From Candidatus Parcubacteria bacterium (GTDB lineage: Bacteria > Patescibacteriota > Minisyncoccia > JAHIHE01 > JAGLIN01): a stretch of 45,693 bases of DNA. The translations under genes and the position numbers were made by a program. The notes beneath the pieces were generated by a model. The model was not told where the DNA came from, searched no databases, and saw nothing but the letters and a program-made list of their open reading frames with translations. Shown here in pieces: positions 5,445 to 41,029 of the stretch. The stretch spans positions 1 to 45,693 of the forward strand of contig JAGLLA010000009.1 in assembly GCA_023140775.1 (NCBI GenBank), given 5' to 3'. The stretch's first letter is position 1, and each line of letters begins with the position of its first letter.

Positions 5445-5903
5445 GTGATGAAAATGTTAATTAGCAGAAAAATACTTCTTTTTATGATATTTTTTTCTGT
5501 CTTTTTTGTTGGGCAATTTTCTTTTACTGATATAAATGTTATTGGTGTTAAAGTGGCTACTGCTGGTTGTGTCCCTGGACCTAATGATGCTAATAGTGAT
5601 GGAGATGATTGTGATCCGAAAGAAAATTTATTTAATTGTAAACGAGACTGTTTACCTGCTGGAATTCCAACAAAAACTCCGGAGGATGCGCTAGATGCAA
5701 TAATCAAATGGATCTTAGGTTTTGGCTTGGTGCTTTCGGTCATCTTCCTGATTTGGGGTGGTATATATTACATTGGATCTTCTGGAGATTCGCAAAAAAC
5801 AGAGACAGCTAAAAAGATTATCAAATATGCCATATTGGGAATTATCGTGATCGGCGCATCGTTTGCAATTATTTCTGTGATAAGCACAATGCTTGCTCCA
5901 TAA
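5445..5903 (+). CDS. TrbC/VirB2-like (CPR-type T4SS pilin-like) protein, paralog 1, with a Cys-rich N-terminal extension
   Basis: Signal/TM segment followed by the conserved core WILGFGLVLSVIFLIWGGIYYIGSSGDSQKTETAKKIIKYAILGIIVIGASFAI. The ORF-track start is GTG; an ATG lies at 5448. Confidence 0.7.
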   Translation: MMKMLISRKILLFMIFFSVFFVGQFSFTDINVIGVKVATAGCVPGPNDANSDGDDCDPKENLFNCKRDCLPAGIPTKTPEDALDAIIKWILGFGLVLSVIFLIWGGIYYIGSSGDSQKTETAKKIIKYAILGIIVIGASFAIISVISTMLAP

Positions 5904-7100: not shown

Positions 7101-7132
7101 CAACTTAGCTTAACTAACGATATTTAAAAAAT

Positions 7133-7159
7133 AAAAAAGATGGATTTACCATCTTTTTT
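7133..7159. terminator. Bidirectional rho-independent terminator between convergent genes
   Basis: aaaaAAGATGG-attta-CCATCTTttttt: a 7-bp stem flanked by an A-run and a T-run. Confidence 0.75.
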
Positions 7160-8193: not shown

Positions 8194-8990
8194 ATTGCCA
8201 GAAAGTCTAAACTATTATCAATATCATTTTCTGTTAAGTGATAATCTCTTATGCTAAATTTATTTAAAAAATTAATATTTTTTGTTTTTTTATTTTGATT
8301 AATAGTGTATTTTAGTAGTTTTAGGATTAGTGTTTTTAATGATTGGGGAATGAATTTTGCAATATTAAAAAAATCATAAGAAAGTATTCTAGAAATTAAT
8401 TTTACTCTTTCAATTTCTATTTTCTGTACCTCTTGGTTGCCAAAGACGCCCATTATTTTTATATTAGAAAATGTTCTTTGTAATATTTCATTCAATTCGT
8501 TGAAATAATATTCTCTGACATGAAACTCATTAAGAAGTCTTCCTCTTCTTCCTGTTCTAGGTTTTTTATTCGGAGTAGAAATAATAAGTATTCCACCACT
8601 TTTTAAAACCCTATAAATTTCTGAGATAAAATTATAATCATCTCGAACATGTTCTATGACATGAAAAGATACAGCTACATCGAAAGAGTTACTATTATGT
8701 GGAATTTTTGTACCATTAAATTGTTGAAAGACGCAGTTTTCTGAAGCATATTTATCCGAAGCATGTTTGATTGTATTTTGATCAATATCTATCCCAATAA
8801 TTCTTTTTACATTTTTAGACAGTAAGCTTGTTCCGTACCCCTCTCCACATCCAATTTCTATGACAAGATTGTCAGCAGTTAATTTTTCTATCGCAGATTG
8901 ATATTCAAAAGAATGACGCAAAAAAATAAGATATTCTTCTTTCGTTCTGAATTCCCTAGGGATTATTCTCTCTCTTGTTTTTGTCATCAT
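8181..8990 (-). CDS. Class I SAM-dependent methyltransferase
   Basis: SAM-binding motif I VIEIGCGEGYGTSLL, followed by DVAVSFHVIEHV and LKSGGILIISTPN. Confidence 0.85.
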   Translation of the reverse strand: MMTKTRERIIPREFRTKEEYLIFLRHSFEYQSAIEKLTADNLVIEIGCGEGYGTSLLSKNVKRIIGIDIDQNTIKHASDKYASENCVFQQFNGTKIPHNSNSFDVAVSFHVIEHVRDDYNFISEIYRVLKSGGILIISTPNKKPRTGRRGRLLNEFHVREYYFNELNEILQRTFSNIKIMGVFGNQEVQKIEIERVKLISRILSYDFFNIAKFIPQSLKTLILKLLKYTINQNKKTKNINFLNKFSIRDYHLTENDIDNSLDFLAICKK

Positions 8991-8993
8991 AAT

Positions 8994-10085
8994 TTATTTA
9001 TTTGCTAATTTCGTAAATTCATTTAAGTATTTTTCAGAAACTGTATTCCAACTATAATTCATAATTATAAATTCTCTTGTTTTTTTGATTGCATTATTCT
9101 CCTTTTTACTATTTAATAAATCATTAATAATCCTTGTATATTCATTTTTATCGTAAGGGGTTATTAAAAATCCTTTCTTATAATCCCTAAGTGCATCCTT
9201 GATTCCTTCTAGATTTGAAGCGACAACAGATAAACCGCAGGAAGCTGCCTCTAGTGTCACGAGCCCAAATCCTTCAGCATTGCCCTTGACCGGAATATTG
9301 GGCATTATAAAAATATTAGATGAATTGTAAATGAATTTTAATGTCGTAGTATCTATTTTTCCAAGGAGCTTGACGTGTTTATTAAGTTTTTTTTCTGCTA
9401 TAATCTTAGCAATTTTTTCATTCATCACTCCTTCTCCGATTACAAGATAAACAAAGTCTTTTCTTTTTTTCAGAATTTCAGGAATAACATTCTCGACAAA
9501 CCATTGAACTCCTTTTCTTTTAACTAATCTCCCTACTGAAATTATTATTTTCTTTTCCTCCAATGGAATTTTCAATGTTTTTTCTAATTCAAGTAGAATA
9601 TTCTTTTTATTCATATTTTCTATATAAAATTCATCTGAAATTCCATTTGTAATTATGGTTATTTTTTCAATGGGTACTTTTCTTTTTATGCACTCGTTCT
9701 TTGTATAATTGCTTATGCAGATTATTTTATCAAGTTTCGCAATGCTTTTAAGAACAAAATATTGATAAATTTTATTTGAATACACAATATCTAAAGCATG
9801 AGCTGTCATTATAACAGGTTTTTTGCTAAAAATCTTTAATATAAATCCTAGGGGAGCGATTGAACCGTCTGCAATATAAATAATATTAATTTTTTTGGTA
9901 AAAAGAATCAAAAATGATTTTAGGAGAAAAAACGGCACTACGATAAATAGCCACTTATTGGAACCGCCCCACTTAATAAGTTCTACCTCTTCTTTTCTCT
10001 CTAGTTGTCTATAAAGCTCGTAGGCAACTTTTTCCATTCCTCCTATTGAGGGAGGAAATTTTCTGGAAATATACAAAATTTTCAT
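8994..10085 (-). CDS. Glycosyltransferase family 1 (GT4-type)
   Basis: N-terminal FPPSIGGMEKVAYEL and C-terminal EGFGLVTLEAASCGLSVVASNLEGI motifs. Confidence 0.88.
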   Translation of the reverse strand: MKILYISRKFPPSIGGMEKVAYELYRQLERKEEVELIKWGGSNKWLFIVVPFFLLKSFLILFTKKINIIYIADGSIAPLGFILKIFSKKPVIMTAHALDIVYSNKIYQYFVLKSIAKLDKIICISNYTKNECIKRKVPIEKITIITNGISDEFYIENMNKKNILLELEKTLKIPLEEKKIIISVGRLVKRKGVQWFVENVIPEILKKRKDFVYLVIGEGVMNEKIAKIIAEKKLNKHVKLLGKIDTTTLKFIYNSSNIFIMPNIPVKGNAEGFGLVTLEAASCGLSVVASNLEGIKDALRDYKKGFLITPYDKNEYTRIINDLLNSKKENNAIKKTREFIIMNYSWNTVSEKYLNEFTKLANK

Positions 10086-15194: not shown

Positions 15195-15234
15195 AATACA
15201 TTCCCTTAGAATGAATTTATTTAACAAATTTGTG

Positions 15235-15314
15235 TGCAGGCGGTGGGAGTCGAACCCACAATCCGAGGAACATGGTCCTAAACCATGCGCGTATGCCAAT
15301 TCCGCCACGCCTGC
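15235..15314 (-). tRNA. tRNA-Leu (anticodon TAG), type II with a long variable arm; no encoded CCA
   Basis: Hand-folded cloverleaf: acceptor GCAGGCG/CGCCTGC, anticodon stem CATGG/CCATG with loop TTTAGGA, T arm GTGGG-TTCGACT-CCCAC. Confidence 0.9.
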
Positions 15315-37582: not shown

Positions 37583-38176
37583 TTATACAACTAATGACAT
37601 AAAATAAGGAGTTATATATGCCTCAATTAGAGCCGCGAAGAATAAAAGGGGAATGAGGACAAATATATAAAATCTTAAAGCCTTGGTGAATTCCACAAGA
37701 AGATCCCCTTTTTTCCCAAATAATTTCCAAACTGTAATCTTTCCAATTTTTAGGCTTACTGCGGTAGCTAAAACGAGAACAGGAATTTCAATGATACCGT
37801 GAGGAGCAATACCAAGAATAAAAAATTCCCATGAGATCATACTAGACGAAACTTGAGCAAAAATACCGAGAACAAATCCATTTACAAGTATAAAGAACAA
37901 TGCAAAAAGTCCTGCAAAAAGTCCCAAGGGTAATAAGAGAAGTATCTTACTTGCATTATTCTCAAAGATAAACAAGAATATTCGATATGACGTCGTATTT
38001 TCTTCAATTGGAAAATAGGATTCAATATTTCTCAAAAATTTTGCTATCTCCTCAGGATTATTTTGAGCGAATACAAATCCAAAAACAATTGAAATCAAGA
38101 AAAGATAAGCAGAAAATACAATATAAGGCTTGATGCCGATTATATATTTTCTAATTTCTTTGATGTTCATAGGCAA
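37583..38176 (-). CDS. SpoIIM-like (stage II sporulation protein M family) membrane protein
   Basis: 197 aa, about 5 TM segments, with FENNASKILL ... VNGFVLG ... PHGIIEIPVL motifs typical of the family. Confidence 0.6.
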   Translation of the reverse strand: MPMNIKEIRKYIIGIKPYIVFSAYLFLISIVFGFVFAQNNPEEIAKFLRNIESYFPIEENTTSYRIFLFIFENNASKILLLLPLGLFAGLFALFFILVNGFVLGIFAQVSSSMISWEFFILGIAPHGIIEIPVLVLATAVSLKIGKITVWKLFGKKGDLLVEFTKALRFYIFVLIPLLFFAALIEAYITPYFMSLVV

Positions 38177-38222
38177 GATTAATTATACTTATATTATATC
38201 ACAAAATTATAATTATGCTATT

Positions 38223-38249
38223 AAAATAAAAACCCAAGTTTGACTTGGG
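38223..38249 (-). terminator. Rho-independent terminator (minus strand)
   Basis: The minus strand reads CCCAAGT-caa-ACTTGGG then tttttatttt. Confidence 0.75.
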
Positions 38250-38278
38250 AGAAATGCTTAATAATGTTTTTCATATTA

Positions 38279-38362
38279 TCAAACACTAAATTTCCAACCT
38301 ACGAACAAAATTCCGTGGCTAATAATAATGCTAATAATACTTTGCTGATTGTTTGAGTTCAT
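38279..38362 (-). CDS. Small ORF P1 (27 aa, MNSNNQQSIISIIISHGILFVGWKFSV), hydrophobic C-terminal half
   Basis: ATG to TGA, followed within 30 nt by an intrinsic terminator. It shares the N-terminal M-x3-N-x-Q-S pattern with P2 and P3. It has no Shine-Dalgarno site. Confidence 0.35.
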   Translation of the reverse strand: MNSNNQQSIISIIISHGILFVGWKFSV

Positions 38363-38411
38363 ATTTAAATGTTGATTATTACGAATAAAAGGAGGAATAA
38401 ATTTATTAATG

Positions 38412-38492
38412 TTATTTTTTATGCTCTATCAGTTTAGGATGTTTTAATAAACATATTTTAAATAACCTTTCAGTCAATTCTTGAAATGTCAT
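38412..38492 (-). CDS. Small ORF S1 (26 aa, MTFQELTERLFKICLLKHPKLIEHKK)
   Basis: Strong Shine-Dalgarno site: AGAGGAGGGcaacaATG. Confidence 0.45.
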   Translation of the reverse strand: MTFQELTERLFKICLLKHPKLIEHKK

Positions 38493-38532
38493 TGTTGCCC
38501 TCCTCTTGTTGTTTATATTATTTTAATATAAT

Positions 38533-38561
38533 TTGTGTATATAAATATTTTATATACACAA
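38533..38561. promoter_or_regulatory. Perfect 29-bp palindrome (13-bp arms, 3-nt centre), candidate operator
   Basis: TTGTGTATATAAA-tat-TTTATATACACAA lies about 40 nt upstream of the S1 start on the minus strand. Confidence 0.5.
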
Positions 38562-38599
38562 GCTATTTTAAAATAAACTTGTTTGAATAAATGGAGAAG

Positions 38600-38640
38600 G
38601 AGAAGCTATATTTTTTGCGTTGTTTCGCATTGAGCTTCTC
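38600..38640. other. Hairpin between small ORFs S2 and S1
   Basis: GAGAAGCT ... AGCTTCTC (8 bp) encloses GCG-ttgttt-CGC. Confidence 0.5.
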
Positions 38641-38672
38641 ACTTCAAGGAGAAAAATACTAAACCCATAAAA

Positions 38673-38795
38673 TCAACCTCTGCTACTATTATGACTTGCC
38701 TCAGAGTTAAGCACGCTCGACGCATTGATTACGTATTGCTCATCTGGATCTTTAAAATATGGTATTTTTCTAGCTCCTTCGATTTCACTACACAT
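38673..38795 (-). CDS. Small ORF S2 (40 aa, MCSEIEGARKIPYFKDPDEQYVINASSVLNSEASHNSSRG)
   Basis: Shine-Dalgarno site GAGGAGataaactATG. The protein is hydrophilic. It is antisense to the less plausible + ORF 38691..38933. Confidence 0.45.
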   Translation of the reverse strand: MCSEIEGARKIPYFKDPDEQYVINASSVLNSEASHNSSRG

Positions 38796-39040
38796 AGTTT
38801 ATCTCCTCTGTCTCTTTTCGTGTCTAATTTAAGAGACAATTCATGTTTACAAATATTTATAAACACAAATCGTCCTTTAAACTATTTCATTATCAATGAT
38901 CGTGAAGCAGATAGTGTTGCAAGAAGAGTATGAGTGATTTATATTATCACTTTTCTATTATCGAATCATACTCTCTTACAACTAGCCGTGGCTGACGACT
39001 TTATAGGACAGTGTCTAGCTTTATGATCTTTGACGGGATT

Positions 39041-39084
39041 GATATTGTCTTGATTACAGAAAATAGTTGAATCAAGACAATATC
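39041..39084. other. Perfect 15-bp-stem hairpin
   Basis: GATATTGTCTTGATT-acagaaaatagttg-AATCAAGACAATATC. Confidence 0.7.
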
Positions 39085-39186
39085 GCCAAACACCTTGAGT
39101 CCTACTGAAAATCATTTATATAACTTTATATAATAAACTTTCGGTAAGACTAAAATATTTATAATCAATAATCAATTTTTTATAAC

Positions 39187-39206
39187 AAAAAACCCACTTT
39201 CGTAGG
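39187..39206 (-). terminator. Rho-independent terminator of unit P2
   Basis: The minus strand reads CCTAC-gaaa-GTGGG then ttttttg. Confidence 0.65.
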
Positions 39207-39242
39207 TTACTTTTAGTTTCGTTTGTTTTCTTTCTCTTTTAA

Positions 39243-39350
39243 CTAAACCAAAAGCAACTTACTAATTAGTAGGTTTTTTTTCGCAATAATCACGGCACTA
39301 GTTGTCTGGAGTGAGGTATTTCCATTGGATTGTGAATTTGATGTTGTCAT
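39243..39350 (-). CDS. Small ORF P2 (35 aa, MTTSNSQSNGNTSLQTTSAVIIAKKNLLISKLLLV); alternatively part of a non-coding sRNA of about 175 nt
   Basis: It lies between a consensus promoter and a terminator. It aligns without gaps and in frame with P3 over 30 codons. It has no Shine-Dalgarno site. Confidence 0.35.
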   Translation of the reverse strand: MTTSNSQSNGNTSLQTTSAVIIAKKNLLISKLLLV

Positions 39351-39370
39351 ATGTTTTTTTAACTGGTTGC

Positions 39371-39398
39371 ATTATAGCACGCATTGAAATGTTGTCAA
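39371..39398 (-). promoter_or_regulatory. Consensus sigma70 promoter of unit P2
   Basis: The minus strand reads TTGACA-16 nt-TATAAT; the -10 element ends 20 nt upstream of the P2 ATG. Confidence 0.65.
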
Positions 39399-39889
39399 AT
39401 AATTAATTGTGGATAGATGACGGATACCAAATTAATTTATTATTTACTGTGAATTGTTGAATTAGAAGTGATGATTTTTAAATGTTAAGCATTCATTTAT
39501 GGCGACCATCACCGTAAATAATTTGCGTTAAGTTTTTTCTTGATAGTTAAATTTGTTTTTTGAAAAATTAGAGGGCATGGATAATTATCCTTAGACACAA
39601 ACTCCAGTGCGTTTTTGCTGCCCCCTAAATACGCGACGTTCTTCACCTTCACTTTCACTTTCATCCCTATCCTTACCTTTCTTTTTATTTCTTTTTTTCT
39701 CTTTCTCGCTTGGCATAATTTCACACACTCCCTTTTATTTTTGTTTCATTTGTTTATTGCATTTGAGCAATCAGTAATTTTTAAATTATTTTTAAAAACA
39801 ATTGATTGATAAAATGTCGTCTAAAAAACCTACCGCCTTAGTGATTTGCTTTTAATCTGGTTTGTTTCCTAAACAAAATTAAAAGTAAA

Positions 39890-39982
39890 TTACTTAGCTA
39901 GTAGGTCTAGTTTCACAATCACAAAAGATCCAGCTGTCTGGGATTTAATTGCTTGTGTCGATTGTGGATTTAATTTATTCAT
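39890..39982 (-). CDS. Small ORF P3 (30 aa, MNKLNPQSTQAIKSQTAGSFVIVKLDLLAK); alternatively part of a non-coding sRNA of about 175 nt
   Basis: A paralog of P2 at both nucleotide and peptide level, preceded by a consensus promoter. Its 3' region folds into long stems ending GGTAGGTTTTTT (T-run at 39823-39828). Confidence 0.35.
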   Translation of the reverse strand: MNKLNPQSTQAIKSQTAGSFVIVKLDLLAK

Positions 39983-40005
39983 ATGAATTTTCAAATTATA
40001 TCTAG

Positions 40006-40034
40006 ATAATAGCATCATTCAAAGTTACTGTCAA
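40006..40034 (-). promoter_or_regulatory. Near-consensus sigma70 promoter of unit P3
   Basis: The minus strand reads TTGACA-17 nt-TATTAT; the -10 element ends 23 nt upstream of the P3 ATG. Confidence 0.6.
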
Positions 40035-40101
40035 TGTTCCTAGAAATGTCAATTTCGCGCTTTTAAGCTAGCTTCTCGTGATAAGAAATGGTTGGGATAA
40101 T

Positions 40102-40129
40102 AAAAAGCTCCACTTGGACTAGTGGAGCT
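40102..40129 (-). terminator. Rho-independent terminator ending the response-regulator operon
   Basis: The minus strand reads AGCTCCACT-agtcca-AGTGGAGCT then ttttta, 37 nt downstream of the stop at 40166. Confidence 0.8.
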
Positions 40130-40165
40130 CTAAGCGATAAGAATTAACGTGTTGGAAGTGAGAAC

Positions 40166-41029
40166 TTATTTTTTCTTTTTTTTCTTTTCAACAATCTCTC
40201 TCACTTTTTCAATAATTTCTCCAACGGTGAAATGAGCTTTAATTATATAATCTTCTGCTCCTAGGGCAAATCCTTTTTCAATTTCGCTTGTTTGACCTAG
40301 GTTAGTAAGCATTATGACAGGAATTGATGCCTTTTCTGGAATTTCTTTGATTTTTTTCAACACTTCAAATCCATCCATTTTAGGCATAATAATGTCAAGT
40401 AATATTATTTCAGGGTCTTCTTCTTTGATCTTGGCAAGCGCTTCAACACCATCACAGGCCGAGCTAACATCAAATCCTTCTTTTTTAAATTTAGTTTCAC
40501 ATATGTCTCTTAAAAAATCATCATCTTCTGCAAGAATAACTTTCAGTCCACCCTTTTTATTCTCGTCAACTGAAATTTCTTCTTCCTCCTCTTCAATTTC
40601 CGTCTTGTCATTCTTTTCAATTACAGGCTCCCTTTTAGCTATTTTCTGAGTATTGTTGAAAAAATTAGAAACTTTTTCTAAAACTTCTGTGGGATCAAAA
40701 TCTGCTTTAATTAAATAATCAACTATATCAAATTTTTTGATCCTTTCAATTTCTACTGGTTCTCCCGAATTGGAGATAATGATCACCGGAATAGATGAAA
40801 ACTTATCATTCGCTCTCAGGTCATGCAGAACCTCAAATCCGTCTTTTATCGGCATTACTATGTCTAGTAAGATTAAATCCGGCATAAAACCGTCTTTTAT
40901 AAGATTTATTCCTTCTTCACCGTTATTGGCAACTAAAATTTCGTATCCGTTTGCTTCTAATTTCTTTTTCAAGAGACTCTGAAGAATTTCCTCGTCCTCC
41001 ATAATTATAATTTTTTTTGTCATAATCAA
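40166..41029 (-). CDS. Response regulator with two tandem receiver (REC) domains and no output domain
   Basis: Two CheY-like modules (DLILLDIVMPIKDGFEV and EIILLDIIMPKMDGFEV) joined by an acidic linker. Confidence 0.85.
   Translation of the reverse strand: MIMTKKIIIMEDEEILQSLLKKKLEANGYEILVANNGEEGINLIKDGFMPDLILLDIVMPIKDGFEVLHDLRANDKFSSIPVIIISNSGEPVEIERIKKFDIVDYLIKADFDPTEVLEKVSNFFNNTQKIAKREPVIEKNDKTEIEEEEEEISVDENKKGGLKVILAEDDDFLRDICETKFKKEGFDVSSACDGVEALAKIKEEDPEIILLDIIMPKMDGFEVLKKIKEIPEKASIPVIMLTNLGQTSEIEKGFALGAEDYIIKAHFTVGEIIEKVREIVEKKKKKK

What the first reader, a model, noticed from the sequence alone, without database searches (positions are those of the whole stretch)
39187..40034. Two paralogous units of about 175 nt, each running from promoter to terminator (P2 and P3)
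Both units begin with TTGACA-16/17-TAT[AT]AT on the minus strand (39371-39398 and 40006-40034) and end in a stem followed by T6. Between these signals the two sequences are clearly homologous, sharing the blocks AAAT[TC]CACAATC, [CT]CCAGACA[AG]CT, GTGATT, ACCTACTA, TAAGTAA, CTTTT and GTTTAG. Each carries an ATG-initiated ORF of 30-35 codons that starts 20-23 nt downstream of the -10 element and lacks a Shine-Dalgarno site, while neighbouring genes use GGAGG. The 3' halves form extensive stems, for example CTTTTAAT/ATTAAAAG and TTTGTT/AACAAA in P3. They could be duplicated sRNAs, dual-function RNAs, or short-leader peptide genes such as type I toxin-like or signalling peptides.
Basis: seen in the sequence. 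Interest (0 to 1): 0.7.

Follow-up and report, generated by a model that had tools for sequence, protein, structure and literature searches.

The report
Paired small-ORF-plus-terminator RNA cassettes
Two ~175-nt promoter-to-terminator cassettes in an uncultured Patescibacteria genome belong to a small undescribed RNA family that keeps a 30-35-codon reading frame open without conserving the peptide, which fits a ribosome-sensing leader or small RNA better than an ordinary protein gene.

Summary
P3 (40034-39823) and P2 (39398-39187), both on the minus strand, are paralogous units. Each has a near-consensus extended -10 promoter, a Shine-Dalgarno-less ATG ORF (30 and 35 codons) and a long hairpin followed by T6.

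I found 12 distinct homologues. All come from close relatives (Paceibacterota MAGs and metagenomes), and where flanking DNA is available they lie at the same site, downstream of a double-receiver response regulator. There is no Rfam match.

The ORF is intact in 12/12 units, with an invariant ATG and in-frame indels of 3 and 27 nt. However, pN/pS is about 1 and variability shows no codon periodicity. Conservation sits in nucleotide blocks instead. The 3' hairpin has 8 covarying pairs. Its 5' base is the invariant in-frame Leu pair CUA-CUA, with the stop codon a few codons downstream in the same arm. That base can also pair locally, so two alternative folds are possible.

My best reading (about 0.4) is a translated leader-type module in which a ribosome at the end of the ORF blocks the terminator. 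First-position units such as P3 always precede an SD-led gene, and in one lineage that gene is leuA-like. A trans-acting or dual-function sRNA (about 0.3) and a true micropeptide gene (about 0.17) remain possible. Type I toxin and pheromone readings are not supported.

The parts
40006..40034 (-). P3 promoter: TTGACA (40034-40029), 17-nt spacer, TGcTATTAT extended -10 (ends at 40006)
   Evidence: 11/12 matches, TG before the -10. TTGACA is invariant in all aligned homologous units, and the promoter is also seen by eye in L097 and L098.
39890..39982 (-). P3 small ORF, 30 codons plus TAA (MNKLNPQSTQAIKSQTAGSFVIVKLDLLAK). No SD. The predicted 5' UTR is about 16 nt.
   Evidence: NCBI/ENA/Logan gene callers called it, without a name. 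The ORF is open in 12/12 homologues.
39912..39968 (-). P3 5' hairpin inside the ORF: UCCACAAU (39968-39961) pairs with AUUGUGAA (39919-39912), enclosing CCAG (39941-39938) / CUGG (39933-39930)
   Evidence: Both arms are nearly invariant. The outer helix has no covariation; the inner helix has one compensatory pair.
39899..39910 (-). CUA-GAC-CUA-CUA: three in-frame CUA leucine codons. CCUACUA (39905-39899) is invariant in the family and forms the 5' base of the terminator hairpin.
   Evidence: CUA is 11% of Leu codons in the window's genes. The motif occurs in the window only in the two units.
39823..39908 (-). P3 long 3' hairpin (39908-39829) plus T6 (39828-39823). This is the only terminator hairpin of this unit. 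The stop codon lies in its 5' arm.
   Evidence: I2; eight pairs with compensatory changes across helices 3 and 4; -22.8 kcal/mol when free; no stable hairpin when the ORF end is masked.
39371..39398 (-). P2 promoter: TTGACA (39398-39393), 16-nt spacer, TGcTATAAT (ends at 39371)
   Evidence: 12/12 matches, TG before the -10.
39243..39350 (-). P2 small ORF, 35 codons plus TAG (MTTSNSQSNGNTSLQTTSAVIIAKKNLLISKLLLV). A 1-nt deletion relative to P3 extends the frame by 5 codons into the inner stem. The same 35-codon form occurs in L003_b and L089_b.
39280..39336 (-). P2 5' hairpin: UUCACAAU (39336-39329) pairs with AUUGCGAA (39287-39280, one A.C mismatch)
39267..39272 (-). P2 in-frame CUA-CUA leucine codons, at the base of the long hairpin
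39187..39279 (-). P2 long 3' hairpin plus T6 (39192-39187). Inside it lies a second, local terminator hairpin, AACCUACGAAAGUGGGUU (39208-39191).
   Evidence: (-23.6 kcal/mol full hairpin; local hairpin -5.3 kcal/mol remains when the ORF end is masked)
39756..39816 (-). Conserved structured leader directly after the P3 terminator: an imperfect hairpin (39816-39760) and a small ATTGC/GCAAT hairpin (39771-39756). Conserved in L089 and L091.
   Evidence: (I7)
39591..39716 (-). SD-led (AAAGGGAG) 41-codon K/E-rich ORF X' (MPSEKEKK...RRVFRGQQKRTGVCV), about 105 nt after the P3 T-run. It is the candidate gene reached by read-through. Counterparts follow the first unit in L003, L098, L089 (95 aa) and L091 (126 aa).
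39095..39154 (-). Hairpin about 35 nt after the P2 T-run. The sequence of this stretch is conserved after second-position units in L089 and L004 (BLAST). I also saw an equivalent hairpin with changed arms by eye in L089 and L097.
   Evidence: (I6)

Best explanation
P3 and P2 belong to a small, undescribed family of about 175-nt transcripts in Paceibacterota-like Patescibacteria. I read them as translated leader-type (attenuator-like) modules.

**Proposed mechanism**
- A near-consensus sigma-70 promoter fires.
- A short, A/U-rich leader without an SD lets ribosomes start at an invariant AUG.
- The 30-35-codon frame is read, but what matters is that it is read. The peptide sequence does not.
- The last codons are the invariant leucine pair CUA-CUA, followed a few codons later by the stop codon. 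These codons form the 5' base of an ~80-nt hairpin whose 3' base (GUAGG) sits directly before the U-run.
- With no ribosome on the ORF end, the hairpin closes (-23 to -33 kcal/mol), transcription stops and the ~175-nt RNA is released.
- With a ribosome held on the CUA-CUA or stop region, the base cannot form. In P3 no other terminator hairpin is available, so polymerase should read on into the conserved leader and the SD-led ORF X' (39716-39591).
- P2 keeps a weaker local terminator hairpin and has no adjacent gene. It probably acts mainly as the released RNA.

**What is shown:** promoters, ORF conservation, lack of amino-acid constraint, hairpin covariation, overlap of ORF and terminator, and the downstream gene arrangement.

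**What is inferred:** that the ORF is translated, that ribosome occupancy controls termination, and that leucine supply is the signal.
For: 1. **Homologues.** Twelve distinct homologues exist, and those with flanking DNA lie at the same site downstream of the double-receiver regulator: L003, L004/L008, L005, L089, L091, L098. L088 and L097 have little or no upstream flank.
2. **The ORF is kept.** The ATG is invariant and no in-frame stop occurs in 12/12 units, while the other frames have 2-7 and 0-3 stops. The indels are 3 nt and 27 nt, both in frame. Shuffling the variable columns keeps the frame open in only 0.26-0.51 of trials per sequence. Multiplied over six independent clusters this gives about 0.0035, before counting the in-frame indels.
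3. **The peptide is not kept.** pN/pS is 1.06 in frame, against 0.99 and 0.96 out of frame. Mean entropy at codon positions 1/2/3 is 0.74/0.83/0.77. The conserved codons never vary synonymously (TCA-CAA, CAG, CTA-CTA) and use minor codons: CUA is 11% of Leu, CAG 24% of Gln, GUG 17% of Val. This is the pattern expected of a regulatory leader ORF.
4. **The structure is conserved.** 94.9% of cells pair, against 35-54% in slid controls. Nine pairs have compensatory changes (0/500 shuffles reach this), and eight of them lie in the 3' hairpin. One is pair 119:216, which ties the ORF end to the base before the U-run.
5. **Partner swapping.** The four segments are C (CCUACU), D (AGUAG, which holds the stop codon in the 30-codon units), F (CCUAC-like) and G (AGUAGG plus the U-run). 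They can form C:G + D:F or C:D + F:G. The alternative set pairs in 86% of cells, against 20-48% when slid. This is the topology of classical attenuators.
6. **Effect of a ribosome.** Folding with the footprint of a ribosome at the Leu codons or at the stop codon removes the strong hairpin in every unit. It leaves at best -0.8 kcal/mol in W_P3, L003_a and L089_a.
7. **Downstream genes.** Every first-position unit is followed on the same strand, within about 90-180 nt, by an SD-led ORF, and I found no strong promoter between them. The ORF is X or X' in the window, L003, L089, L091 and L098, with a conserved structured leader in the window, L089 and L091. In L004/L008 it is a 2-isopropylmalate-synthase-family gene. 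The L004 unit in front of that leuA-like gene has gained 27 nt that add three more Leu codons.
8. **Published support.** Ribosomes close to a terminator can almost abolish its function in vivo (PMC4824070, abstract).
Against: - No structure specific to antitermination exists. Both alternative folds leave G paired next to the U-run.
- D lies only 10-15 nt after C, so a ribosome stalled on the Leu codons would also cover D. The classical 2:3 antiterminator logic therefore does not apply.
- Several units keep a local F:G hairpin of -4 to -8 kcal/mol that could terminate even with a ribosome present: W_P2, L003_b, L089_b, L088_a, L091_a. One of these, L091_a, is followed by gene X.
- Second-position units such as P2 have no gene close downstream.
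- In the window the downstream ORF X' is only a 41-codon low-complexity ORF, yet P3 is fully conserved. This suggests the unit has a function of its own.
- A weak promoter-like site (TTATCA-16-AATAAT, 39812-39785, 9/12 matches) lies between P3 and X'.
- The invariance of CCUACUA can be explained by its having several pairing partners, without any role as leucine codons. Two or three Leu codons is also a short run for an amino-acid attenuator.
- Second codon positions at codons 20-22 are nearly always U, giving hydrophobic residues. This hints at some peptide-level constraint.
- There are no expression data.
Confidence: 0.4

Rival explanations
1. The units are stand-alone trans-acting small RNAs, possibly dual-function. 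The ~175-nt terminated RNA is the product. It acts by base pairing or by binding a protein through its conserved blocks (UUCACAAU, CCAGA, CCUACUA). The ORF is translated incidentally, or translation stabilises or modulates the RNA.
For: - Each unit has its own strong promoter and its own terminator.
- The structure is conserved and covaries.
- Conservation lies in nucleotide blocks rather than in codons.
- The units are retained intact where the downstream gene has shrunk (window, L003) or been replaced (L004).
- Two paralogous types are kept side by side in several genomes.
- P2-type units have no adjacent gene.
- There is precedent: attenuator-derived rnTrpL acts in trans (PMC6614838).
Against: - A purely non-coding RNA does not explain the invariant AUG, the open frame in 12/12 units, or the in-frame 3-nt and 27-nt indels.
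- Nearly all conserved blocks lie inside predicted stems, so no obvious single-stranded seed exists.
- No targets could be searched for, because only one contig of the genome is available.
Confidence: 0.3
2. The units are ordinary genes for 30-35-residue micropeptides, with a polar N-terminal half and a C-terminal phi-phi-phi-V-K-x-x-L-L-phi-K motif. The peptide might modulate the neighbouring two-component system. The RNA structure would be only a terminator and stability element.
For: - ORF, start codon and stop position are conserved.
- Codons 20-22 have U at the second position while their first positions vary, and the third position too at codon 21. Residues there are always hydrophobic, and LL is invariant.
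- The site next to the HAMP-FIST-HK-REC-REC/REC cluster is fixed.
- A different pair of small ORF units occupies the same site in a sister lineage.
- Gene callers annotated the P3 ORF.
Against: - pN/pS is 1.06, no different from the wrong frames.
- Codons 2-5 and 8-14 are essentially random.
- The conserved residues never show synonymous change and use minor codons, so the constraint is on nucleotides.
- There is no SD, whereas neighbouring ORFs use GGAG-type sites.
- In 1.84 billion representative proteins the family has only two members.
Confidence: 0.17
3. The units are type I toxin-antitoxin-like loci: a small toxic peptide mRNA with a long structured 3' end, held in check by an antisense RNA.
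For: - The peptide size is right, the mRNA is highly structured and the units are duplicated.
- In P2-type units the long hairpin is flanked by an A-run and a U-run. It could therefore also terminate a convergent transcript.
- A 10/12 promoter-like site on the plus strand at 39105-39134 points into the 3' end of P2.
Against: - The peptides have no 18-20-residue hydrophobic segment. The longest uncharged hydrophobic run is about 5-6 residues.
- The plus-strand promoter-like site is not conserved in L089 or L003, and it lies inside an AU-rich conserved hairpin.
- P3-type units have no A-run.
- pN/pS is about 1.
Confidence: 0.03
4. The units encode secreted peptide pheromone precursors that are sensed by the adjacent histidine kinase, in the manner of ComC, AgrD or Phr.
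For: - The units lie next to a kinase and receiver gene cluster in every lineage that has flanking DNA.
- The N-terminal half evolves fast, as pherotype peptides do.
Against: - I saw no signal peptide or double-glycine leader by eye.
- The flanking genes I annotated include no C39-peptidase ABC exporter and no AgrB-like gene.
- The response regulators have no output domain.
- The constraint at synonymous sites is not explained.
Confidence: 0.05

Closest known systems
Ribosome-mediated leader-peptide attenuators of amino-acid operons (leuL, pheL, trpL; Rfam Leu_leader / Phe_leader)
   Same: - A short ORF without peptide-level constraint.
- In-frame codons for one amino acid near the ORF end, here the minor CUA codon. 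From memory, the enterobacterial leu leader also uses CUA; PMC1183508 discusses attenuation and mentions rare leucine codons, but I did not read it.
- An intrinsic terminator overlapping the ORF end.
- Four segments that can exchange pairing partners.
- One family member sits in front of a leuA-like gene.
   Different: - Only 2-3 regulatory codons.
- No antiterminator fold: both folds pair the segment next to the U-run.
- Most members are not upstream of amino-acid biosynthesis genes.
- The units occur as tandem paralogues, each with its own consensus promoter.
- No Rfam leader model matches.
E. coli pyrBI-type attenuation and terminator repression by a closely following ribosome (PMC4824070)
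   Same: The leader ORF runs into the terminator hairpin, so a ribosome physically prevents the hairpin from forming. No antiterminator RNA is needed. This is the mechanism I propose for P3.
   Different: From memory, in pyrBI the signal is UTP-dependent polymerase pausing, and the ORF spans the whole hairpin. Here the ORF ends in the 5' arm, 64-83 nt before the U-run, and the signal is unknown.
rnTrpL / peTrpL of Sinorhizobium (PMC6614838, PMC7298713)
   Same: A terminated attenuator RNA with a short leader and a tiny ORF serves as a cis attenuator, a trans-acting sRNA and a source of a peptide. This would reconcile my leading reading with its main rival.
   Different: rnTrpL is about 110 nt with a 14-codon ORF containing Trp codons, and it lies upstream of trpE(G). 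There is no sequence or structural similarity to it. The family here is untested.
Dual-function sRNAs with a small ORF (B. subtilis SR1/SR1P, S. aureus RNAIII/hld, E. coli SgrS/SgrT). Comparison from memory.
   Same: An independent promoter and terminator, a length of about 200 nt, structured, and carrying a 26-43-codon ORF.
   Different: In those RNAs the peptide is conserved as a protein and the base-pairing regions are separate and single-stranded. Here the peptide shows no purifying selection, and the ORF overlaps both conserved hairpins.

Membership tests
Leader-peptide transcription attenuator (leu/phe/trp type) | Short translated ORF whose peptide sequence is unconstrained apart from its regulatory codons | tested here: met
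   The ORF is open in 12/12 units, pN/pS is 1.06, and CUA-CUA is invariant. Translation itself could not be tested.
Leader-peptide transcription attenuator (leu/phe/trp type) | Intrinsic terminator immediately after or overlapping the leader ORF | tested here: met
Leader-peptide transcription attenuator (leu/phe/trp type) | A mutually exclusive antiterminator fold that frees the segment before the U-run | tested here: not met
   Alternative pairings exist (C:D + F:G versus C:G + D:F), but G is paired in both. Only ribosome masking removes the terminator, and only in some units.
Leader-peptide transcription attenuator (leu/phe/trp type) | Located directly upstream of a biosynthetic operon for the cognate amino acid | tested here: not met
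   In the window, P3 precedes a 41-codon ORF of unknown function and P2 precedes no gene. Only L004/L008 have a leuA-family gene downstream.
Leader-peptide transcription attenuator (leu/phe/trp type) | Match to a curated leader RNA model | tested here: not met
   No Rfam family reaches its threshold. Phe_leader scores 19 bits against a gathering score of 55, with E = 4.4.
Trans-acting or dual-function sRNA | Own promoter and intrinsic terminator, with a conserved secondary structure | tested here: met
Trans-acting or dual-function sRNA | Conserved accessible seed and identifiable targets | not testable with these tools
   The conserved blocks are mostly in stems. The rest of the genome is not available for target prediction.
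Trans-acting or dual-function sRNA | For the dual-function case: peptide under purifying selection | tested here: not met
   pN/pS is 1.06. Only codons 20-22 show a coding-like pattern.
Type I toxin-antitoxin | Hydrophobic, membrane-spanning toxin peptide | tested here: not met
   The peptide sequences have no hydrophobic run of 18 or more residues.
Type I toxin-antitoxin | Overlapping or adjacent antisense antitoxin RNA with a conserved promoter | tested here: not met
   No conserved opposite-strand promoter in the window, L089 or L003.
Peptide pheromone precursor of a two-component system | Export or processing leader and a dedicated exporter or protease nearby | tested here: not met
   I saw no leader motif by eye. 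The annotated neighbours are HAMP, FIST, HK, REC, REC-REC, SpoIIM, Nth, a rubrerythrin-like gene and a CCA-adding enzyme.

The most novel reading that the evidence does not exclude
The units could be a Patescibacteria-specific class of ribosome-occlusion attenuators that sense charged tRNA-Leu(UAG) through two or three in-frame CUA codons forming the base of the terminator stem itself. They would work without any antiterminator RNA. They would persist as portable promoter-leader cassettes that can be placed in front of different genes (X/X', and leuA in one lineage). The terminated ~175-nt product would double as a trans-acting RNA. The non-homologous 'MFYQ' small-ORF cassettes at the same site in a sister lineage would be a second, independently built solution.
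Probability: 0.15. Interest if true: 0.65.

Novelty: new member of a known kind. Interest (0 to 1): 0.45.

Why it matters
In the literature searches I ran I found no described regulatory RNA or leader peptide from Patescibacteria (CPR). These are organisms with tiny genomes that, from general knowledge, cannot yet be grown alone.

This family offers a concrete, sequence-defined candidate: a strong promoter, an SD-independent start, a frame that is kept open while its peptide drifts, and a terminator built on the last codons of that frame. If ribosome occupancy does control termination here, it would show that translation-coupled attenuation operates in these reduced bacteria. It would also give a compact, portable sensor cassette.

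If the RNA instead acts in trans, it would be one of the first CPR sRNA families with covariation support.

In either case the 2-kb 'gene-free' gap holding these units is in fact packed with conserved small transcription units that genome annotation misses.

Tried and rejected
- **Rfam.** I searched the window at gathering thresholds, the 2.2-kb region at E up to 10, and seven homologous loci at gathering thresholds. Only tRNAs and noise came back (microRNA models, Phe_leader at 19 bits).
- **Peptide homology.** The search for homologous proteins refuses queries under 40 aa. A profile of the two peptides against 1.84 billion representatives found only P3 itself, one further family member (P0122) and one spurious repeat protein.
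- **Collection scans.** A 23.5-base pattern found one JGI metagenome contig (L088) and no viral contig. Eighty genome loci fetched through the neighbouring regulator gave no new distinct members: only L008 and L010 carry units, and both duplicate lineages I already had (L004 and L007). Loci whose regulator is at most 63% identical gave none. The family is therefore narrow.
- **Classical 1:2 / 2:3 / 3:4 attenuation.** The segment similarity is there. However, segment D is too close to the Leu codons to stay free of a stalled ribosome, and both folds terminate. I rejected the classical form.
- **Type I toxin-antitoxin.** Rejected: no conserved antisense promoter and no membrane-length hydrophobic peptide.
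- **Homology of the 'MFYQ' cassettes** of L014, L028 and L095 to this family. The covariance model gives only 14-25 bits, driven by the AU-rich hairpin and terminator. I treat them as analogous, not as shown homologues.
- **Third small-ORF unit** (38362-38279) as a third paralogue. It scores 8.5 bits with E = 0.57. Not supported.
- **Gene X/X'.** No Pfam or PHROG family matches.
- **CTACTA tandem array upstream of the L091 unit.** It lies within a run of several unrelated short tandem repeats, so it is probably a coincidence.
- **Literature.** Searches for CPR sRNAs or small ORFs found nothing relevant.
Full report
**Where this is.** The window matches contig DAOVWU010000005.1 of MAG GCA_030636505.1. 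The closest relatives are labelled Candidatus Paceibacterota or Patescibacteria. The window is 33% G+C.

The finding lies in a 2-kb stretch (38176-40166) with no long ORF. All the surrounding genes are on the minus strand. Upstream lies a signalling cluster: a HAMP protein, a FIST protein, a histidine kinase, a single-domain receiver and a double-receiver protein (40166-41029). Downstream lie a SpoIIM-family gene (37583-38176), endonuclease III and a rubrerythrin-like gene.

**Checking the observation.**
- The two best promoter-like sites in 38000-40400 are TTGACA-16-TGcTATAAT (39398-39371, 12/12) and TTGACA-17-TGcTATTAT (40034-40006, 11/12).
- Each is followed 20-23 nt later by an ATG with no Shine-Dalgarno sequence. 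The ORFs have 35 codons (39350-39243) and 30 codons (39982-39890).
- Each unit ends in a stem followed by T6.
- The units align over their full length, with all the quoted blocks.
- A profile of the pair finds only these two copies in the window, and CCTACTA occurs nowhere else in it.
- Both RNAs fold far better than shuffled controls: -37.5 and -42.4 kcal/mol, z = -3.9 and -4.8.
- No Rfam family matches.

**Relatives.** The peptides are too short for the indexed protein search. I therefore used the adjacent double-receiver gene to fetch syntenic loci, 80 genome loci and one DNA-pattern scan of metagenomes.
- nhmmer and a covariance model (R1) recover 12 distinct units: W_P3, W_P2, L003_a/b, L004_a/b (= L008), L007_a (partial), L088_a, L089_a/b, L091_a, L097_a and L098_a.
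- All come from genomes whose regulator is at least 65% identical to the window's. Loci with 52-63% identity have none.
- The viral collection has none.
- Among 1.84 billion representative proteins, only P3 itself and one other member had been called as genes.
- Where flanks exist, the units lie directly downstream of the double-receiver gene, usually as a tandem pair.
- The 35-codon form of P2 recurs in L003_b and L089_b. The two types therefore predate the split of these genomes.

**A frame that is kept, a peptide that is not.**
- The ATG is invariant and the frame is open in 12/12 units. The other two frames carry 2-7 and 0-3 stops.
- The only length changes inside the frame are a 3-nt deletion (L004_b) and a 27-nt insertion (L004_a).
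- Shuffling only the variable columns leaves the frame open in 26-51% of trials per sequence. Multiplied over six effectively independent clusters this gives about 0.0035, before the in-frame indels are counted.
- Yet pN/pS over all pairs is 1.06, indistinguishable from the two wrong frames (0.99 and 0.96). Variability has no codon periodicity: entropy is 0.74/0.83/0.77 at positions 1/2/3.
- The conserved residues (Ser6-Gln7, Gln15, Leu27-Leu28) are encoded by codons that never change synonymously. These are minor codons in this genome: CUA is 11% of Leu codons, CAG 24% of Gln, GUG 17% of Val. The constraint there is on nucleotides.
- The one hint of peptide-level selection is at codons 20-22. 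The second position is almost always U while the first position varies, and at codon 21 the third position varies too.

**RNA structure.** RNAalifold and pair counting on an 11-sequence alignment give 94.9% paired cells, against 35-54% when partners are slid. Nine pairs have compensatory changes, which 0/500 shuffles reach.
- The support lies in the 3' hairpin: seven covarying pairs in the inner helix and one (119:216) in the basal helix.
- The basal helix joins A-A-A-C-C-U-A-C-U, which is the in-frame Leu codons CUA-CUA and their flank, to A-G-U-A-G-G-U-U-U immediately before the U-run.
- The stop codon lies in the same 5' arm.
- The 5' hairpin (UUCACAAU/AUUGUGAA around CCAG/CUGG) sits inside the ORF. 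It is conserved, but its outer helix has no covariation.
- Four short segments resemble each other in pairs. C (CCUACU) resembles F (CCUAC/CCACU), and D (AGUAG, which holds the stop codon in the 30-codon units) resembles G (AGUAGG).
- As a result, a second fold (C:D plus F:G) is possible in 86% of cells, against 20-48% when slid, with two compensatory pairs.
- Segments with several partners are expected to be frozen in sequence. That may be why CCUACUA is invariant.

**What a ribosome would do (inference).** I folded each unit with the footprint of a ribosome masked, either stalled with CUA in the A site or sitting at the stop codon.
- The full hairpin (-23 to -33 kcal/mol) is lost in every unit.
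- W_P3, L003_a and L089_a are left with nothing better than -0.8 kcal/mol next to the U-run.
- W_P2, L003_b and L089_b keep a local hairpin of -4.4 to -5.3 kcal/mol. L088_a, L091_a and the L004 units are intermediate.
- Experiments in E. coli show that a ribosome close to an intrinsic terminator can almost abolish it (PMC4824070, abstract).
- Termination at these units should therefore depend on whether a ribosome still occupies the last codons when polymerase reaches the U-run, 64-83 nt after the stop codon.

**Context.** Every first-position unit is followed on the same strand by an SD-led ORF within about 90-180 nt.
- In L089 this is a 95-residue protein and in L091 a 126-residue protein. 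Both end in LRVFINTLT and match no Pfam or PHROG family.
- In the window (39716-39591, 41 codons, containing RRVFRG), L003 and L098 it is a short K/E-rich version.
- The leader in between contains hairpins conserved in the window, L089 and L091. Only weak promoter-like sites occur there.
- In L004/L008 the gene after the first unit is instead a 2-isopropylmalate-synthase-family gene. A second such gene lies further on. That first unit is the one with the 27-nt insertion, which adds three more Leu codons, for six in the last 14.
- Second-position units, including P2, are followed by a conserved hairpin (window 39154-39095) and no nearby gene.
- No conserved antisense promoter exists.

**Interpretation.** The combination best fits a leader-type module in which the act of translation gates an intrinsic terminator. 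The elements are an invariant AUG, an open frame, unconstrained residues, nucleotide-level conservation, a terminator built on the last codons, segments that swap partners, and a downstream SD-led gene. The mechanism would resemble pyrBI-like ribosome occlusion more than the classical antiterminator switch. I give this 0.4.
- It is clearly incomplete. Both RNA folds terminate, and several units have a back-up hairpin.
- P2-type units have no gene to control.
- P3 stays intact although X' is reduced to 41 codons. This is what one would expect if the released RNA has its own job, as shown for the attenuator RNA rnTrpL (PMC6614838).
- A stand-alone or dual-function sRNA therefore gets 0.3, and a real micropeptide 0.17.
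- The leucine-sensing version (CUA codons, the leuA association) is attractive, but it rests on one lineage and on a motif whose invariance has another explanation. I put it at about 0.15.
- Type I toxin and pheromone readings fail their defining features.

**Novelty and score.** The family is not in Rfam, and its ORF is known only as an unnamed gene call. As a kind of element it is familiar: a small-ORF-bearing leader or sRNA. The family is confined to a few uncultured genomes and nothing can be tested directly. Interest is moderate (0.45).

Noticed in passing
window 38233-38362 (minus strand): A third small unit. A 27-codon ORF (38362-38279, MNSNNQQSIISIIISHGILFVGWKFSV) is followed by a terminator (38249-38233, CCCAAGTCAAACTTGGG plus a T-run) just upstream of SpoIIM. 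Both the peptide core IISIIISHG and the DNA are conserved in L004 (about 9900-10040) and L097 (1033-1165). The P2/P3 covariance model scores it only 8.5 bits, so it is not shown to be a paralogue.
   Followed up: partly
window 38412-38576 (minus strand): A 28-nt-arm palindrome (38518-38545 / 38549-38576, 89% complementary) is followed by an SD-led (AGAGGAGGG) 26-codon ORF (38492-38412, MTFQELTERLFKICLLKHPKLIEHKK).
   Followed up: no
window 38673-38893 (minus strand): A conserved AT-rich palindrome (38825-38884, containing TGTTTATAAATATTTGTAAACA) is followed by an SD-led 40-codon ORF (38795-38673). The palindrome is conserved in L003, L004, L089, L091 and L097. It is followed there too by a ~20-42-codon ORF of unrelated sequence, where one was seen (L004, L089, L091, L097).
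   Followed up: partly
window 39041-39084: A perfect 15-bp inverted repeat (GATATTGTCTTGATT / AATCAAGACAATATC) with a 14-nt loop, lying in the non-conserved part of the gap.
   Followed up: no
L095 4950-5330; L028 2210-2625; L014 1055-1765: In a sister lineage (regulator 60-63% identical) the same site holds two tandem cassettes of a different sequence family. Each has TTGACA-17-TGATATTAT, an ORF starting MFYQ(K/E/R) of 27-29 codons, and a terminator. The ORF contains a near copy of the terminator's 3' arm plus its U-run (GCGGTCGTTGTTTTT), so it could pair with the terminator's 5' arm as an antiterminator when not covered by a ribosome. The second cassette lies about 110 nt upstream of an Amidohydro_2-DFP-flavoprotein operon.
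   Followed up: partly
L004 6249-7868 and 10143-11654 (= L008): Two 2-isopropylmalate-synthase-family genes, and a tRNA-Val (8610-8686), have been inserted into this small-gene island in one lineage. Amino-acid biosynthesis genes are, from general knowledge, unusual in Patescibacteria.
   Followed up: partly
L006/L007/L010 about 7110-7134: These contigs carry the first unit but diverge from L005 in the middle of the 3' hairpin, into unrelated G+C-richer sequence (ATGAATTACCCCGCAGCAAGCTGACGAGG...). This is either an assembly break or an insertion.
   Followed up: no
L091 5529-5651: A run of short tandem repeats lies just upstream of the L091 unit. It includes about eight copies of a 7-mer that contains CTACTA (5567-5618), the same hexamer that is invariant in the units. 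It is probably a coincidence.
   Followed up: partly
window 15234-15314 (minus strand): tRNA-Leu with anticodon UAG, the cognate reader of the invariant CUA codons, is encoded in the same window.
   Followed up: no
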